Part shown: positions 256 through 64,000 of the stretch, one piece after another
Layout: the number at the start of each line of letters is the position of its first letter
Position numbering within the stretch: position 1 is the stretch's first letter
Origin: Candidatus Stammera capleta
GTDB lineage: Bacteria; Pseudomonadota; Gammaproteobacteria; Enterobacterales; Enterobacteriaceae
NCBI GenBank assembly: GCA_036689445.1
Contig: CP144825.1
Span: forward strand, 21,683 to 85,682
Length of the DNA: 64,000 nt
Reading direction: 5' to 3'
Position numbers and translations under genes: made by a program
Notes under the pieces: model-generated
The model's input: the letters and a program-made list of their open reading frames with translations, nothing else
Database searches by the model: none
What the model was told of the DNA's origin: nothing

Positions 256-1299
256 ATGTTTAAGAAAATTCGTGGTCTTTTTTCTAATGATTTATCTATT
301 GATTTAGGTACAGCAAATACTTTAATTTATGTTAAAAATAAAGGTATTGTATTAAATGAACCTTCTGTTGTAGCTATAAGACAAGATAAAATTGGTTCTT
401 CTAAAGTTGTTGCTGCTGTTGGTTATCAAGCTAAACAAATGTTAGGACGTACCCCGGGAAATATTTCTGCTATTAGGCCTATGAAAGATGGTGTTATAGC
501 TGATTTTTTTGTTACTGAGAAAATGTTACAATATTTTATTAAACAAGTTCATACTAATAGTTTTATGAATCCAAGTCCTCGTGTTTTAGTTTGTGTTCCT
601 GTTGGAGCTACTCAAGTAGAACGTAGAGCTATTAAAGAATCTGCTTTTGGTGCGGGTGCTAGAGAGGTTTTTTTGATTGAGGAACCTATGGCTGCTGCTA
701 TAGGAGCAAATTTACCTGTTTCTGAAGCTACTGGTTCTATGGTTGTAGATATAGGAGGTGGTACTACTGAAGTAGCTGTTATATCTTTGAATGGAGTTGT
801 TTATTCTTCTTCTATACGTGTTGGTGGTGATAGATTTGATGAATCAATAATAAATTATATTAGGAGAAATTATGGTTCATTAATAGGTGAATCTACTGCT
901 GAAAGAATTAAACATGAAATTGGTTCTGCTTATCCTAGTTCTTCAGTTACTGAAATTGAAGTTAGGGGTAGAAATATGGCGGAAGGTGTTCCTAAAAGTT
1001 TTGTACTTAATTCTAATGAAATTTTAGAAGCATTACAGGATCCTTTAAGTGGAATAATTAGTGCTATTATGGTTGCTTTAGAACAATGTCCTCCAGAATT
1101 AGCTTCTGATATATCAGAAAGAGGTATGGTTTTAACTGGTGGTGGAGCTTTATTAAAAAATTTAGATAGATTATTGGTTGAGGAAACTAATATTCCTGTA
1201 ATAATAGCTGATGATCCACTTACTTGTGTTGCTAGAGGTGGAGGTAAAGTATTAGAAATGTTGGATATTAATAGTGGTGAATTATTTAGTAATGATTAA
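256..1299 (+). CDS. mreB: Rod-shape-determining actin homolog MreB
   Basis: One intact 347-aa ORF, nearly colinear with E. coli MreB ([49 protein letters not shown]). TAA stop. Confidence 0.97.
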
Positions 1300-1820
1300 A
1301 TTATTTTTTTTTATAAAAAATTAATTTTTTTATATTTTTTAGTTTTTTATTAAAAAAAAAATTAATTATTTTTTTTTATATTATATAATATGATTTTTTT
1401 TTTAGAGAAAAATAATTTTATATAAAAATATTTAAAAAAAATTATTTTTTTTTAATAAAAAAAATTATATATGTATTTTTTTTGTTTAAAAGAAAACAAA
1501 TATTTTTTTAATGATATTAATTATTTGATAATTAATTTTTTTGTTTTTAGTTTTTATTTTTTTTTAGTAATATGTGGTTATTTATTTTGTTTTATAGTGT
1601 TAATTAAAATTAATATTTTTTTTATAAGTAAATATATTTTTTTATATTTAAGTTTTAATATTTATTAAATAAATTTTTATTAATATAAATATAATATATA
1701 TATAATTTTTAGTTTTAATAAATAATATTTTAATTGAATAAATTTTATTTATTCATTAGTTATTTTAAATGTATATAAATACGTTATATATTTGTATATA
1801 ATTTATGTTTATTTTATTAA

Positions 1821-3287
1821 ATGGGATATAAAATGTTTACTGATATAGTTTATGATAGTATTTTAAATAAAAATAATATTTTGGATAAAAATTTATATGA
1901 TATGGTATCTAGTTTATCATGTAAAAATATTGATTATGGAGATATTTATTTTCAAAATTCAATTTATGAATCTTTATTTTTAGAAGAGAAAATAATTAAA
2001 AATTATTTAATTAACCATAAAGACGGTGTTGGTGTTAGAATTGTTTCTGGTGATAAAACTAGTTTTTCTTATTCTAATAAAATTAGTGTTAAATCAATTT
2101 TTGATTCTATTAATAAAGTTAAGTCTATTTATAATAATGTTTTAAATAAGAAAAGATGTAAATTATCTTTTTTTTCTTTAAAAAATTCTTTTTATGAAAA
2201 TAAATCTCCAGTTAATTATTTATTTAATAAAAAAAAAATTGATTTATTATTATATTTAGATAATTATATTAGAAATATTGATTCACGTATTAATTATGTT
2301 TCTTTAAATCTTAATAGTAGTTATGATATTATTTTAATTTTATCTACAGATGGTGTATTTATTGGTGATGTTAGACCTTTAATAAATTTATCTATTAGAG
2401 TTCAATTAGAAAATAAAGGTTATTGTGATTTTGGTATTAGTGGAGGTGGTGGTCGTTATTCTTTTGATACATTATTATCTAAATGTTATAATAATTTTTC
2501 TTTAGTAGAATATTGAGCTAATGAGGCTGTTAGAATAGGTATTAATAATTTATATGCTGATTTTGCTCCAGCAGGTAGTTTTCCAATTATATTAGGTTCT
2601 GGTTGACCTGGTGTTTTATTACATGAAGCTGTTGGTCATGGTTTGGAAGGTGATTTTATTAGAAAAAATATTTCTTTATATTCTAATTTGATGAATAAAA
2701 AAATATCTTCTGATTTATGTACCGTTATAGATGATGGAACTATTTATGGTTTAAGAGGTTCTTTAAATATAGATGATGAAGGTGTTCCTACAAAAAAAAA
2801 TATTTTGATTAAAGATGGAATTTTAAATTCTTATATGTTAGATAAATTAAATGCTAGATTATTAAATTTGTCTTCAACTGGTAATGCTAGAAGGGATTCT
2901 TATTGTTCTTTGCCTTTACCTAGAATGACAAATACTTATTTATTACCTGGCAAAAATTGTTTTTCTGATTTATTGAATAGTATTGATTATGGAATTTATA
3001 TTGTAAATTTATCTGGGGGTCAAGTTGATATTACTTCTGGTAAGTTTGTTTTTACAATTTTAGAAGGTTATTTAATCAAGAATGGTAAAATTTCTTCTCC
3101 TATTAAAGGAGCTACTTTAATAGGTTCTAGTATAGATATTATGAATAAGATAAGTATGATATCTAATGATTTAAAATTTGATAATGGTATGGGTAATTGT
3201 GGTAAAGATGGTCAAAATATTCCTGTTAGTGTTGGGCAACCTTCGTTAAAAATAGATTCAATGATAATAGGTGGTATAAATAAATAG
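1821..3287 (+). CDS. tldD: Metalloprotease TldD
   Basis: ORFs 1821-2516 and 2643-3287 are in the same frame and join across in-frame TGA at 2514 and 2604. The second TGA falls in [21 protein letters not shown], the E. coli [19 protein letters not shown] motif. Total 488 aa vs 481 in E. coli. TAG stop. The start could instead be ATG 1833. Confidence 0.93.
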
Positions 3288-3337
3288 TTATTTATTATTT
3301 TAATATTTTATTTTTTTAATTTTATATTGGAAATTAA

Positions 3338-3754
3338 ATGTATAAAAAAAAAGTTAGTTCTTTGAATTGGTATTTAGTTAATGCTAAAAATAAAATTTTA
3401 GGTAGATTAGCGAGTAAAATTTCAATTATTTTGATGGGTAAGAATAAATCTAATTATTTACCTAATATTAATATAGGTGATTATGTTGTAGTAATAAATG
3501 CTAGTAAAATATTAGTTACTGGTAATAAAAAATTTGATAAAATTTATTATAGTCATAGTGGTTATGTTGGTAATTTAAAAAGTATTACTTTTAAGGAAAT
3601 GTTAAATAAATCTCCTGAGTATATAATTAAAAAAGCTATTAAAGGTATGTTGCCAAAAAATATTTTGGGTAATTTGATGTTAAAAAAACTTAAAATTTAT
3701 TCTGGTTATTTTCATAAGCATGGATCTCAAAAACCAATTTTAATTGATATTTAG
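3338..3754 (+). CDS. rplM: 50S ribosomal protein L13
   Basis: 138-aa ORF with L13 motifs ([28 protein letters not shown]). Uses TGG for Trp at 3368. rplM-rpsI pair as in E. coli. Confidence 0.95.
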
Positions 3755-3762
3755 AGGAAATT

Positions 3763-62205: not shown

Positions 62206-62260
62206 TTTATTTTTTTTTTTAATTTTAATATATAATTAATTATATCAATTAGGTTTTATT

Positions 62261-63313
62261 TTGAAAAAGAAAAATTTATTAAATTTTGATAGAAATATGA
62301 TAACAAAAATTTTTTTTGATCTTGGAGAAAAAAAATTTGTTGTAGATCAAGTGATGTATTGAATATATAAAAAATATTGTTTTAATTTTTTACTTATGTT
62401 TAATATTAGTATAGAATTAAGAAATAAATTATTTAATTTATTTAATATTAATTTACCAAAGATTATTGATGTTAAATATTCTTTTGATGGAGTAATAAAA
62501 TGATTGTTATTATTAAGTGATGGTAATTGTATTGAAACAGTATATATTCCTGAAAAAAATAGAAATACTTTATGTATTTCTAGTCAAGTAGGTTGTATTG
62601 TTAATTGTAGTTTTTGTGCAACAGGAAAAATTGGTTTTAAACGTAATTTATATACTTGTGAAATTATTGGTCAAATATTATTAATTTCAAATTTAATTAA
62701 AAATGAAATGAATAGTAATAATCGTATTACTAATATAGTTTTTATGGGTATGGGTGAGCCATTATTAAATTTTAAAAATGTAGTAACTTCAATTAATATT
62801 ATATTAGATTTTTATGGATTAAATTTTTCTAAAAGAAAAGTGGTTTTATCTACTTCAGGTGTTGTTCCTTATATATATAAATTAATTAATTTAATTGATA
62901 TAGTTTTAGTAATTTCATTACATGCACCTAATGATATTTTAAGAAGTAAAATTATGTCAATAAATAATAGATATAATTTATATTCTTTATTAAAAGCTAT
63001 GAAATGTTATATAAAATATTCTAAGTCTAATAAAAATAAATTAAATATTGAATATATTATGTTAGATAATATAAATGATAGTGAGAAATATGCTTATCAA
63101 TTAGTAAATTTATTAAAGAATATTCCTAGTAAAATAAATTTAATACCTTATAATAATATGAGTAAATACAATTTATATAAAAAAAGTACTTTTAATAGAG
63201 TATTAAATTTTCGTAATATTCTTAAGAGAAATGGTATTTTTTCTTTTATTAGAGTAATTAGGGGTTTTGATATAAATGCATCTTGTGGTCAATTATCTGT
63301 TATAAATAAATAA
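62261..63313 (+). CDS. rlmN: Dual-specificity 23S rRNA/tRNA A2503/A37 C2-methyltransferase (radical SAM)
   Basis: TTG start at 62261, chosen by alignment to the E. coli N-terminus (NLL.F.R..M...F.DLGEK.F..DQVM.-W-). TGA at 62360 and 62501 (IK-W-). ETVYIPE..R.TLC.SSQVGC...C.FC.TG, MGMGEPL, GQL. 350 aa. Confidence 0.9.
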
Positions 63314-63354
63314 AATTTAATTTTTTTAATAAAAAAAATTTTAAATAAAATATT

Positions 63355-63729
63355 ATGAGTAAAAAAAATATAGATTCTTTAGGTGACTTTTTATTAAAAT
63401 CTAGAAAGTCTTTAAATTTAAGTAAGCAATATATTGCAGATAAATTATGTTTAAAATTGGAAATAATTTCTAATATAGAAAATAATTTATTACCTGATAA
63501 TATTCTACCTGTTTTTTTTTGTGGTTATATACGTTCTTATGCTCGTTTATTAAATATTAAAGATAAAGATTTAGATAAATATTTAGAAAAAAATAGTTTA
63601 TGTGATTTTTATTACAGTAAAAAATATAAAAATGATAAAAAAAATTTAATTAAAGAGTTTTATTATATAAAAATTTTTATTTTATTAAAATTATTATTTT
63701 TTTTGGTTTTTAGTTTTTTTTTAAATTAA
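63355..63729 (+). CDS. rodZ: Cytoskeleton protein RodZ, truncated to the HTH domain plus transmembrane segment
   Basis: G.FL...R..L.LS.Q.IA.KLCLK...I..IE......D.......GYIRSYARLL.I matches the E. coli RodZ N-terminal HTH (..LCLK.., RGYIRSYARLV), followed by one hydrophobic segment (IKIFILLKLLFFLVFSFF). 124 aa vs 337. rlmN-rodZ synteny. Confidence 0.72.
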   Translation: MSKKNIDSLGDFLLKSRKSLNLSKQYIADKLCLKLEIISNIENNLLPDNILPVFFCGYIRSYARLLNIKDKDLDKYLEKNSLCDFYYSKKYKNDKKNLIKEFYYIKIFILLKLLFFLVFSFFLN

Positions 63730-63806
63730 ATTTTTAATTTTTTTTTTAATGTTAATTAATTTTTATTTAATTTATTTTTATTATTTTTTATATTTATAAG
63801 TATGTT

Positions 63807-64000
63807 ATGAGTAATTTTAAAATAAATAATGTTAAAGGTATGTATGATTGTATACCTAATGATATATATATATACCAATATGTAGAAAATATTTTAAGAA
63901 AATTAATGTGAAATTATTCTTTTGAAGAAATTAGATTTCCTATTATAGAAAATAATTATTTATTTAGTAAAGTAATAAATAATAAGGATGATTTTTTATT
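63807..64000 (+). CDS. hisS: Histidine--tRNA ligase (5' part; continues beyond the window)
   Basis: MSNFKINNVKGMYDCIPNDI...ILRKLM-W-NYSFEEIRFPIIE...LF resembles E. coli ..IQAIRGMNDYLPGET...L..YGYSEIRLPIVEQTPLF. In-frame TGA at 63909. Confidence 0.8.

What the first reader, a model, noticed from the sequence alone, without database searches (positions are those of the whole stretch)
256..64000. UGA is read as tryptophan (code 4) throughout a genome with Enterobacterales-type gene order
What the sequence shows directly:
- The standard-code ORF track breaks almost every long gene into same-frame pieces, each separated by a single TGA.
- I placed more than 60 such TGAs individually. Examples are tldD 2604, mutS 5126 and 6323, rpsF 6894, orn 13304 and 13553, miaA 17639/17729/17741, fusA 22833 and 23058, tufA 25372, rplC 26589 and 26724, rplD 27177 and 27231, rpsC 29491/29503/29941, secY 35519, rpoA 38903, dnaK 55750 and metK 60935/61103/61559.
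- Many more lie in alr, glyQ, glyS, mnmA, dacA, rodA, mrdA, pgi, ileS and glyA.
- Wherever I can recall the E. coli ortholog, the TGA sits on a conserved Trp. Examples are [49 protein letters not shown] and [22 protein letters not shown].
- Joining across TGA gives lengths within a few residues of E. coli (fusA 704, hflX 426, alr 359, tufA 394).
- Every clear terminator is TAA or TAG.

Background: UGA->Trp is known in Mollicutes and in a few tiny insect symbionts (Hodgkinia, Zinderia, Nasuia), none of which is Enterobacterales-derived. Here the 16S/23S sequences and the micro-synteny are Enterobacterales-like.

Whether this particular lineage is already described cannot be decided from the sequence alone. 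Either way, this is the organising feature of the window, and under table 11 most genes would be miscalled as pseudogenes.
Basis: partly seen in the sequence, partly recalled or inferred. Interest (0 to 1): 0.85.

Follow-up and report, generated by a model that had tools for sequence, protein, structure and literature searches.

The report
Stammera beetle symbiont reads UGA as tryptophan
This stretch comes from Candidatus Stammera capleta, the tiny-genome gut symbiont of tortoise beetles; it does read the stop codon UGA as tryptophan, but this has been known for the lineage since 2017.

Summary
With TGA treated as sense, the window gives 66 dense E. coli-like genes that all end in TAA or TAG. 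They carry 119 in-frame TGA against 13 TGG.

With TGA masked, 99 of 107 aligned TGAs lie opposite an E. coli Trp (P about 5e-191).

The organism is a member of Candidatus Stammera capleta (Enterobacterales):
- A 16S 33-mer hits only Stammera genomes.
- The window is collinear with the complete Stammera genome CP144833.1.
- Its IleS is 100% identical to a protein on a 301,361-bp NCBI contig.

In a Stammera strain that keeps the standard code (CP144774.1), 39 of the window's 47 aligned TGAs are TGG.

UGA=Trp in Stammera was published by Salem et al. 2017 and is listed in later surveys.

The related genome has only a CCA-anticodon tRNA-Trp. The contig that carries this window's IleS also appears to carry a full-length RF2 homologue whose SPF motif reads NPF. 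A 2026 preprint has already reported both points for the clade.

Verdict: real, correctly interpreted, already known.

The parts
256..64000 (.). Whole region. 66 protein genes read in code 4, with 119 in-frame TGA (120 counting 18253 in the hflX N-terminal part), 13 TGG, and stops that are only TAA or TAG.
1821..3287 (+). tldD. TGA at 2514 and 2604, both opposite an E. coli Trp.
4193..6766 (+). mutS. TGA at 4601, 5126 and 6323 face Trp. TGA at 4754 lies in an unconserved stretch.
8114..13085 (+). rRNA operon: 16S (8114-9692), tRNA-Glu UUC (9828-9900), 23S (9949-12865), 5S (12889-13005), tRNA-Asp GUC (13010-13085). No tRNA-Trp follows tRNA-Asp, unlike E. coli rrnC. The decoding-centre, helix 34, 23S 1051-1110 and H69 sequences match E. 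coli apart from one base at 23S 1110.
13127..13678 (+). orn. TGA at 13304 and 13553, both opposite Trp.
16868..17827 (+). miaA. TGA at 17639, 17729 and 17741.
17851..19131 (+). hflX. 426 aa from a TTG start, with no ATG at the expected start. TGA at 18253, 18862 and 19021. hfq is absent between miaA and hflX.
22680..26004 (+). fusA (704 aa; TGA at 22833, 23058, 23256, 23331) and tufA (394 aa; TGA at 25372).
26038..39313 (+). S10, spc and alpha operons (rpsJ to rplQ) in E. coli order. There are 24 in-frame TGAs, in rplC, rplD, rplW, rpsS, rpsC, rplP, rpsQ, rplE, rpsN, rplF, secY, rpsK, rpsD and rpoA.
30583..30585 (+). Relic stop codon of rplP. This TGA overlaps the rpmC ATG (30582-30584) as ATGA, two codons after the point where E. 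coli L16 ends. Read as Trp, it adds a 13-residue tail that contains a second TGA (30601) and runs to the TAA at 30625-30627. The same arrangement is present in CP144833.1.
39444..43532 (+). alr (359 aa, 5 TGA), glyQ (5 TGA) and glyS (3 TGA).
43507..48673 (-). mnmA, dacA, rodA and mrdA, with 3, 3, 2 and 6 TGA respectively.
48788..50449 (+). pgi, 6 TGA.
52457..55249 (-). ileS, 930 aa, 22 TGA and 1 TGG. 20 of the 22 TGAs are TGG in the standard-code Stammera CP144774.1. The protein is 100% identical to P0241 on a 301,361-bp NCBI contig.
55447..58539 (+). dnaK (TGA at 55750) and dnaJ (no Trp codon). The dnaJ product has an exact match on Logan contig SRR23946978_51707.
58547..59791 (-). glyA, TGA at 59272.
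60458..61606 (+). metK. TGA at 60935, 61103 and 61559, all opposite Trp.
62297..63313 (+). rlmN (Pfam RlmN_N plus Radical_SAM). TGA at 62360 and 62501, both TGG in CP144774.1. The gene ends in TAA here, where CP144774.1 ends in TGA.

Best explanation
The window is a 64-kb piece of the chromosome of a Candidatus Stammera capleta strain. Stammera is the extracellular, genome-reduced Enterobacterales symbiont of tortoise leaf beetles. In this strain UGA is a tryptophan codon (genetic code 4).

Shown here:
- TGA occupies conserved Trp columns.
- TGA is used in the proportion expected of a synonymous A-ending partner of TGG under the genome's AT pressure.
- TGA swaps with TGG between strains.
- TGA never ends a gene. 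Genes that end in TGA in a standard-code sister strain end in TAA here.

Inferred, because the window itself carries neither trnW nor prfB:
- UGA is read by the ordinary tRNA-Trp(CCA) through a C-A mismatch at the wobble position. In the related complete genome this is the only tRNA-Trp. It has a normal 5-bp anticodon stem and an A at position 24, the same base as in the E. coli Hirsh UGA suppressor.
- Competition from release factor 2 is weak or gone. An RF2 homologue is retained, but its codon-reading loop carries changes (SPF to NPF, H214Q, R213I). The prfB of close relatives itself needs UGA=Trp to be translated.

The most likely history is codon capture. AT pressure removed UGA stops, RF2 constraint relaxed, and TGG then drifted to TGA.
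For: Alignment to E. coli: 99 of 107 masked TGAs face an E. coli Trp. That is 93%, as clean as GGT, GGA or CGT are for their own amino acids. P is about 5e-191.

Codon usage: the TGA:TGG ratio is 90% A-ending. The other NNR pairs run from 92% to 98%.

Terminators: 66 of 66 ORFs end in TAA or TAG, and there are no C-terminal overruns except at rplP and rpmC.

Comparison with the code-4 genome CP144833.1: the window is collinear with 20.7-86 kb of that genome. At shared Trp codons the counts are 91 TGA/TGA, 12 TGA/TGG, 9 TGG/TGA and 3 TGG/TGG.

Comparison with the standard-code strain CP144774.1: that strain has 0 in-frame TGA, 60 TGG and 4 of 17 genes ending in TGA across this region. 39 of the window's 47 aligned TGAs are TGG there. 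rlmN, rsmA and dacA end in TGA there and in TAA here.

Identity of the organism:
- A 16S 33-mer hits only 7 Stammera genomes among 185,579 species representatives.
- 16S identity to those genomes is 92.6-93.5%. The seven genomes are 92.9-98.5% identical to one another.
- IleS is 100% identical to a protein on a 301,361-bp NCBI contig.

tRNA and RF2:
- CP144833.1 has 29 tRNA genes, one of them tRNA-Trp(CCA), and no UCA tRNA. That tRNA has U11-A24 and a 5-bp anticodon stem.
- A contig of the same 301,361-bp length carries the RF2 homologue P0008, which has NPF and an intact GGQ.

Literature: Stammera uses code 4 with a CCA-only tRNA-Trp. The fraction of genes with UGA is 62.1% here and 62.35% in the published Stammera genome.
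Against: There are no protein-level data.

The window contains no trnW and no prfB. The tRNA evidence therefore comes from a relative whose 16S is 93% identical, plus the literature.

A retained RF2 homologue with an intact GGQ leaves room for some termination at UGA.

The NPF variant also occurs in the RF2 (P0046) of CP144774.1, a strain that still ends genes in TGA. NPF alone therefore does not show loss of UGA recognition.

A at position 24 of tRNA-Trp is reported as common in bacteria, so it is not diagnostic.
Confidence: 0.93

Rival explanations
1. UGA is ambiguous rather than fully reassigned. It is read mostly as Trp, but the retained RF2 homologue still terminates at some UGAs. The relic stop at the rplP/rpmC ATGA overlap would be one such site, as proposed for the Providencia siddallii PSAC symbiont.
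For: An RF2 homologue with an intact GGQ is inferred for this genome and is shown directly in relatives that use TGA for Trp. The rplP TGA sits two codons after the point where E. coli L16 ends, and it is conserved between strains. PSAC is described in this way in PMC10540940.
Against: Only 1 of 66 genes has a TGA near its expected end. That TGA cannot mutate to TAA without destroying the rpmC start codon, so its retention needs no function. TGA is used as freely as any other A-ending synonymous codon, including 22 times in ileS and in ribosomal proteins and EF-Tu. The base following TGA shows no bias compared with other codons: A follows 45% of TGAs and 46% of all codons. The codon-reading loop of this RF2 carries changes at positions that are invariant in 70 other RF2s.
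Confidence: 0.12
2. The TGAs are real stops, and the window is a decaying genome full of pseudogenes.
For: Under table 11 most long genes are broken into pieces.
Against: The interruptions are only ever TGA and never TAA or TAG, even though TAA and TAG are very common out of frame. 93% of them fall on Trp columns. 91 are conserved as TGA in a strain whose proteins are only 45-96% identical. They affect essential genes such as EF-Tu, EF-G, RpoA, SecY and ribosomal proteins.
Confidence: 0.003
3. UGA encodes something other than Trp: glycine (code 25), or selenocysteine or cysteine.
For: Both kinds of UGA recoding exist in bacteria.
Against: None of the 107 aligned TGAs faces Gly or Cys in E. coli. 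39 of 47 are TGG in the standard-code sister strain. No UCA-anticodon tRNA of any kind was found in the window or in the complete genome of the relative.
Confidence: 0.003
4. The ribosome itself suppresses UGA through rRNA changes. Known E. coli UGA suppressors include 16S C1054 and helix 34 mutations and 23S G1093A.
For: Such mutations cause UGA-specific readthrough in E. coli (my own background knowledge, not checked against a paper here).
Against: The window's 16S helix 34, 530 loop, 1400 and 1492/1493 regions and 23S H69 are identical to E. coli base for base. 23S 1051-1110 is identical apart from position 1110, so A1067 and G1093 are unchanged.
Confidence: 0.01

Closest known systems
Candidatus Stammera capleta, genetic code 4 (Salem et al. 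2017; García-Lozano et al. 2023/2024; gTranslate preprint 2026)
   Same: Same clade. It shares the 16S signature, collinear gene order, about 20% GC in the window, a genome size of about 0.3 Mb, about 62% of genes carrying UGA, a CCA-only tRNA-Trp in the relative checked, and prfB retained in some strains.
   Different: Nothing in kind. This strain is about 93% identical in 16S to the seven species representatives found, and its closest IleS is 73% identical, so it is a separate host-specific lineage. Its RF2 homologue reads NPF instead of SPF. I did not find that detail in the papers I read.
Candidatus Providencia siddallii PSAC (leech symbiont, Enterobacterales)
   Same: An Enterobacterales symbiont with UGA=Trp and a CCA-only tRNA-Trp. 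Its retained prfB carries an in-frame UGA, as prfB does in the related strains CP144833.1 and SRR23946979.
   Different: In PSAC only about 20% of genes carry UGA, and about nine genes are still thought to stop at UGA. Here 62% of genes carry UGA and no gene needs a UGA stop.
Candidatus Zinderia insecticola
   Same: Code 4 with only a CCA-anticodon tRNA-Trp and a very AT-rich genome.
   Different: It is a betaproteobacterium. Its tRNA-Trp has a 4-bp anticodon stem, whereas Stammera's has 5 bp. prfB is absent.
Hodgkinia, Nasuia and Mycoplasmatales
   Same: UGA=Trp in reduced genomes.
   Different: They read UGA with a cognate tRNA-Trp(UCA) and have lost prfB.

Membership tests
Bacterium using genetic code 4 (UGA = Trp) | In-frame UGA falls on conserved tryptophan columns of orthologues. 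| tested here: met
   99 of 107 masked TGAs face an E. coli Trp. 39 of 47 are TGG in the standard-code Stammera CP144774.1.
Bacterium using genetic code 4 (UGA = Trp) | TGA and TGG behave as synonymous codons. | tested here: met
   21 TGA/TGG swaps among 115 shared Trp codons against CP144833.1. The pair is 90% A-ending, in line with other NNR pairs.
Bacterium using genetic code 4 (UGA = Trp) | No gene depends on UGA for termination. | tested here: met
   66 of 66 ORFs end in TAA or TAG at the expected position. The single relic TGA is at the rplP/rpmC ATGA overlap.
Bacterium using genetic code 4 (UGA = Trp) | Accompanying feature, not defining: a tRNA-Trp with a UCA anticodon. | not testable with these tools
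   The window holds five tRNA genes and none is Trp. The DNA of the rest of this genome could not be fetched. In the complete relative CP144833.1 the only tRNA-Trp is CCA. The literature says Stammera never has UCA.
Bacterium using genetic code 4 (UGA = Trp) | Accompanying feature, not defining: loss of prfB (RF2). | tested here: not met
   There is no prfB in the window. However, the RF2 homologue P0008 (353 aa, PCRF plus RF-1 domains) lies on a contig of the same 301,361-bp length as this window's IleS. Relatives that use TGA for Trp also keep prfB. This is known for some Stammera assemblies.
Candidatus Stammera capleta | 16S rRNA groups with Stammera. | tested here: met
   The 33-mer is found only in 7 Stammera genomes. 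16S identity is 92.6-93.5%, within or just below the 92.9-98.5% found among those seven genomes.
Candidatus Stammera capleta | Gene order and gene content match a Stammera chromosome. | tested here: met
   All 66 ORFs are collinear with CP144833.1 positions 20.7-86 kb at 45-96% protein identity. The 8-kb DNA query was 81% identical.
Candidatus Stammera capleta | Genome of about 0.2-0.34 Mb with 14-20% GC. | tested here: met
   The window is 20.1% GC. The IleS match lies on a 301,361-bp contig. The published ranges are given in PMC13462651.
Candidatus Stammera capleta | Lives in Cassidinae beetles and encodes pectinases. | not testable with these tools
   No pectinase gene lies in this window. 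The host is not recorded, and the only lead is SRA run SRR23946978.
UGA = Gly (code 25) or selenocysteine recoding | UGA falls on Gly, Cys or Sec columns. | tested here: not met
   0 of 107 aligned TGAs do so.

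The most novel reading that the evidence does not exclude
In this Stammera lineage the retained RF2 may not be a decaying leftover. It may have been re-specialised, for example to UAA only, or to a codon-independent release role. On this reading, changes in its codon-reading loop (S205N, H214Q, R213I, K204E) let the ordinary tRNA-Trp(CCA) take over UGA without an anticodon change. 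The conserved UGA at the rplP/rpmC overlap would then be a test site for residual termination. I found no discussion of the RF2 loop changes in the papers I read. NPF also occurs in a strain that still ends genes in TGA, which argues against a simple story.
Probability: 0.12. Interest if true: 0.5.

Novelty: already known. Interest (0 to 1): 0.15.

Why it matters
In practice, this sequence must be annotated with translation table 4. Under table 11, 41 of the 66 genes would be miscalled as fragments or pseudogenes.

Scientifically it adds nothing new in kind. Stammera has been a textbook-listed code-4 lineage since 2017, and its unusual features (CCA-only tRNA-Trp, prfB kept in some strains, a basal standard-code clade) are already in the literature.

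The clade is still a good natural system for studying how a stop codon is captured. Strains with TGG only, and strains with 90% TGA, sit side by side with the same gene order.

Tried and rejected
1. rRNA suppressor changes. The 16S helix 34 (C1054), 530 loop, 1400 and 1492/1493 regions and 23S H69 are identical to E. coli. 23S 1051-1110 is identical apart from position 1110. Rejected.

2. Context-dependent readthrough. The base after TGA is A in 45% of cases, against 46% for all codons, so there is no bias.

3. Fetching this genome's own trnW and prfB. The one genome-contig scan found 7 other Stammera genomes but not this one. The dnaJ and rpsJ products are on record only on short Logan contigs of SRR23946978. 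P0008 and P0241 are not in the position index, and the cluster look-up gives no accession. The Logan-only LysS hit P0156 belongs to another sample, SRR6147586.

4. 'NPF means RF2 has lost UGA recognition.' This idea is weakened, because the RF2 of CP144774.1 (P0046) is also NPF, and in the region I read that genome has no in-frame TGA and ends 4 of 17 genes in TGA.

5. Minimum-free-energy folding of the relative's tRNA-Trp does not give a cloverleaf. I used ARAGORN's cloverleaf instead.

6. One antisense ORF (28004-28798, minus strand, opposite rplB), three ORFs inside the rRNA genes and one ORF opposite fmt (20577-20891) were dropped as spurious.

Full report
**1. What is in the window**

The window is 20.1% G+C. 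It holds one rRNA operon (16S, tRNA-Glu, 23S, 5S, tRNA-Asp) and three further tRNA genes, none of them tRNA-Trp.

If only TAA and TAG are treated as stops, the sequence resolves into 66 tightly packed genes. Their order follows E. coli blocks:
- rplM-rpsI
- rpsF-rpsR-rplI
- orn-tRNA-Gly-tsaE-amiB-mutL-miaA-hflX
- def-fmt
- rpsL-rpsG-fusA-tufA followed by the S10, spc and alpha operons
- glyQ-glyS
- dacA-rodA-mrdA
- dnaK-dnaJ

These blocks were confirmed against E. coli K-12 loci. Four ORFs without a hit in my E. coli set were annotated by Pfam as a VTT/DedA-type membrane protein, TsaB, RlmN and the N-terminal part of RodZ.

**2. Check of the observation**

I translated every ORF with TGA masked as X and aligned it to E. 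coli K-12 DNA by tblastn. The alignment therefore could not be pulled towards Trp.

- Of 107 in-frame TGAs inside alignments, 99 face an E. coli Trp. The other 8 lie in poorly conserved stretches. None faces Gly, Cys or a stop.
- Trp makes up 0.92% of aligned columns, so the binomial probability is about 5e-191.
- In a table of all codons, TGA-to-W (0.93) is as clean as GGT-to-G or CGT-to-R.
- Altogether there are 119 in-frame TGA and 13 TGG. 41 of 66 genes (62%) carry at least one TGA.
- TAA and TAG are frequent out of frame but never occur in frame.
- The genes end in TAA 60 times and in TAG 6 times, at the positions where the E. coli proteins end.

**3. TGA behaves as a synonymous codon**

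The A-ending share of the TGA/TGG pair is 90%. For AAR, GAR, CAR, TTR and AGR, and for the A/G-ending codons of the four-fold families, it is 92-98%. This is what AT mutation pressure predicts if TGA and TGG mean the same thing.

**4. Which organism**

- A 33-base stretch of the 16S gene matches only seven genomes among 185,579 species representatives. All seven are named Candidatus Stammera capleta.
- The window's 16S is 92.6-93.5% identical to those seven. They are 92.9-98.5% identical to one another.
- One complete Stammera chromosome, CP144833.1 (297,036 bp), is filed as a 'plasmid' in PLSDB, so I could read all of it. NCBI places it in Enterobacterales; Enterobacteriaceae.
- All 66 window genes are collinear with positions 20.7-86 kb of that genome, at 45-96% protein identity.
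- The window's IleS is 100% identical to a protein on a 301,361-bp NCBI contig, which is Stammera-sized.
- Its DnaJ and S10 occur on Logan contigs of run SRR23946978, a run number adjacent to those of other Stammera genomes.

**5. Comparison inside the clade**

Against CP144833.1, which also uses TGA for Trp, shared Trp codons are TGA/TGA 91 times, TGA/TGG 12 times, TGG/TGA 9 times and TGG/TGG 3 times.

Against CP144774.1 (313,621 bp) the picture is different. Across 17 genes of this region that genome has 0 in-frame TGA and 60 TGG, and 4 of the 17 genes end in TGA. 39 of the window's 47 aligned TGAs are TGG there. Three of the four genes that end in TGA in that strain (rlmN, rsmA, dacA) end in TAA here. 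A second locus of CP144774.1, and one of CP144793.1, show the same standard-code pattern.

This matches the basal standard-code Stammera clade described in the gTranslate preprint.

**6. A relic stop**

rplP is the one gene with a TGA near its expected end. TGA 30583-30585 overlaps the rpmC start codon as ATGA, two codons after the end of E. coli L16. A second TGA and then a TAA follow, which adds 13 residues.

The same arrangement is present in CP144833.1. Changing this TGA to TAA would destroy the rpmC ATG, so its retention needs no function. It is nevertheless the obvious site at which to test for residual termination.

**7. How UGA is probably read (inference)**

The window carries neither trnW nor prfB.

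- tRNA. In CP144833.1 ARAGORN finds 29 tRNAs. One is tRNA-Trp with anticodon CCA, and no tRNA has UCA. Its anticodon stem has 5 bp and its D stem has U11-A24, where E. coli has U11-G24. A24 is the Hirsh UGA-suppressor base, but it is reported to be common in bacteria. I treat it as a lead only.
- rRNA. The rRNA sites known to give UGA suppression in E. coli are unchanged.
- RF2 in the relative. CP144833.1 has prfA and a full-length prfB with SPF and GGQ motifs, no need for a frameshift, and two TGAs at conserved Trp positions.
- RF2 across the clade. A search with that RF2 found 14 Stammera-type RF2s. One of them (P0008, 353 aa) is on a contig of exactly 301,361 bp, so I infer that it belongs to this window's genome.
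- Changes in P0008. It reads NPF instead of SPF and keeps GGQ. It differs at 15 of 73 columns that are invariant in 70 other RF2s, including R200K, K204E, R213I and H214Q around the codon-reading loop.
- The closest relative. The nearest strain by IleS (the 304,518-bp genome, reads in SRR23946979) has NPH, W319R and two TGAs in prfB.
- A caution. NPF is also present in the RF2 of the standard-code strain CP144774.1. It cannot by itself mean loss of UGA recognition.

The most economical reading has two parts. The CCA tRNA decodes UGA as a near-cognate codon, and RF2 is weakened or is itself dependent on UGA=Trp. The history would be one of codon capture under AT pressure.

**8. What is known**

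UGA=Trp in Stammera was reported by Salem et al. 2017. It is listed as a known code in Shulgina and Eddy 2021 and in the Providencia siddallii paper. Stammera genome papers use it routinely.

The Providencia paper tabulates Stammera as prfB-negative, with a CCA tRNA-Trp and 62.35% of genes carrying UGA. The figure here is 62.1%.

The 2026 gTranslate preprint adds that five basal genomes use code 11, that some code-4 assemblies keep prfB, and that no Stammera has tRNA-Trp(UCA). A 2026 NAR paper classes the Stammera tRNA-Trp as the 5-bp-stem form.

The finding is therefore already known.

**9. Caveats**

There are no protein data. The mechanism rests on a relative and on the literature. The RF2 assignment to this genome rests on matching contig length, because the DNA was not retrievable.

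Noticed in passing
window 30582-30627: The rplP stop is a relic TGA that overlaps the rpmC ATG as ATGA. Read as Trp, it gives L16 a 13-residue tail (WLIINYWKIKVLKN) that overlaps the start of rpmC. The arrangement is conserved in CP144833.1.
   Followed up: partly
outside the window: protein P0008 (contig 301,361 bp); L032 389-1384; CP144833.1 150895-151971: Stammera strains that use TGA for Trp keep a full-length prfB. In relatives it contains in-frame TGA at Trp positions. The SPF codon-reading motif is NPF in this window's presumed RF2 and NPH in its closest relative, with further changes nearby (H214Q, R213I). NPF also occurs in a standard-code strain.
   Followed up: partly
L039 and L035 (CP144774.1), L037 (CP144793.1): These sister Stammera genomes use TGG only for Trp (0 in-frame TGA among 155 Trp codons read) and still end some genes in TGA. 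Both codes therefore coexist within one named species, with the same gene order.
   Followed up: yes
window 59792-60457: A 666-bp spacer of 4.5% G+C lies between glyA and metK. CP144833.1 and CP144774.1 have speA and speB at this position, so this strain has lost them here.
   Followed up: partly
window 17828-18282: hflX has no ATG at its start. The frame is open from 17815, and a TTG at 17851 gives 426 aa. hfq is missing between miaA and hflX, and priB is missing between rpsF and rpsR, relative to E. coli.
   Followed up: partly
CP144833.1 (L023-L028): A complete 297,036-bp Stammera chromosome is deposited as 'plasmid pStChz2' and is therefore included, without annotation, in the plasmid database PLSDB.
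   Followed up: yes
CP144833.1 282311-282385: The only tRNA-Trp (CCA) has A at position 24, pairing with U11. This is the base of the E. coli Hirsh UGA suppressor. It sits next to tRNA-Ile(GAU), not in the rRNA operon as in E. coli rrnC.
   Followed up: partly
L039 18853-20066 (CP144774.1): In the standard-code strain, mrdA and rodA are called as short products of only 205 and 193 aa. In the window they are 600 and 357 aa. They may be pseudogenes there.
   Followed up: no
window 1-64000: GC skew is strongly positive (0.2-0.38) across almost the whole window. It drops to about zero at 44-48 kb and to 0.07 at 52-56 kb, where the genes lie on the minus strand.
   Followed up: no
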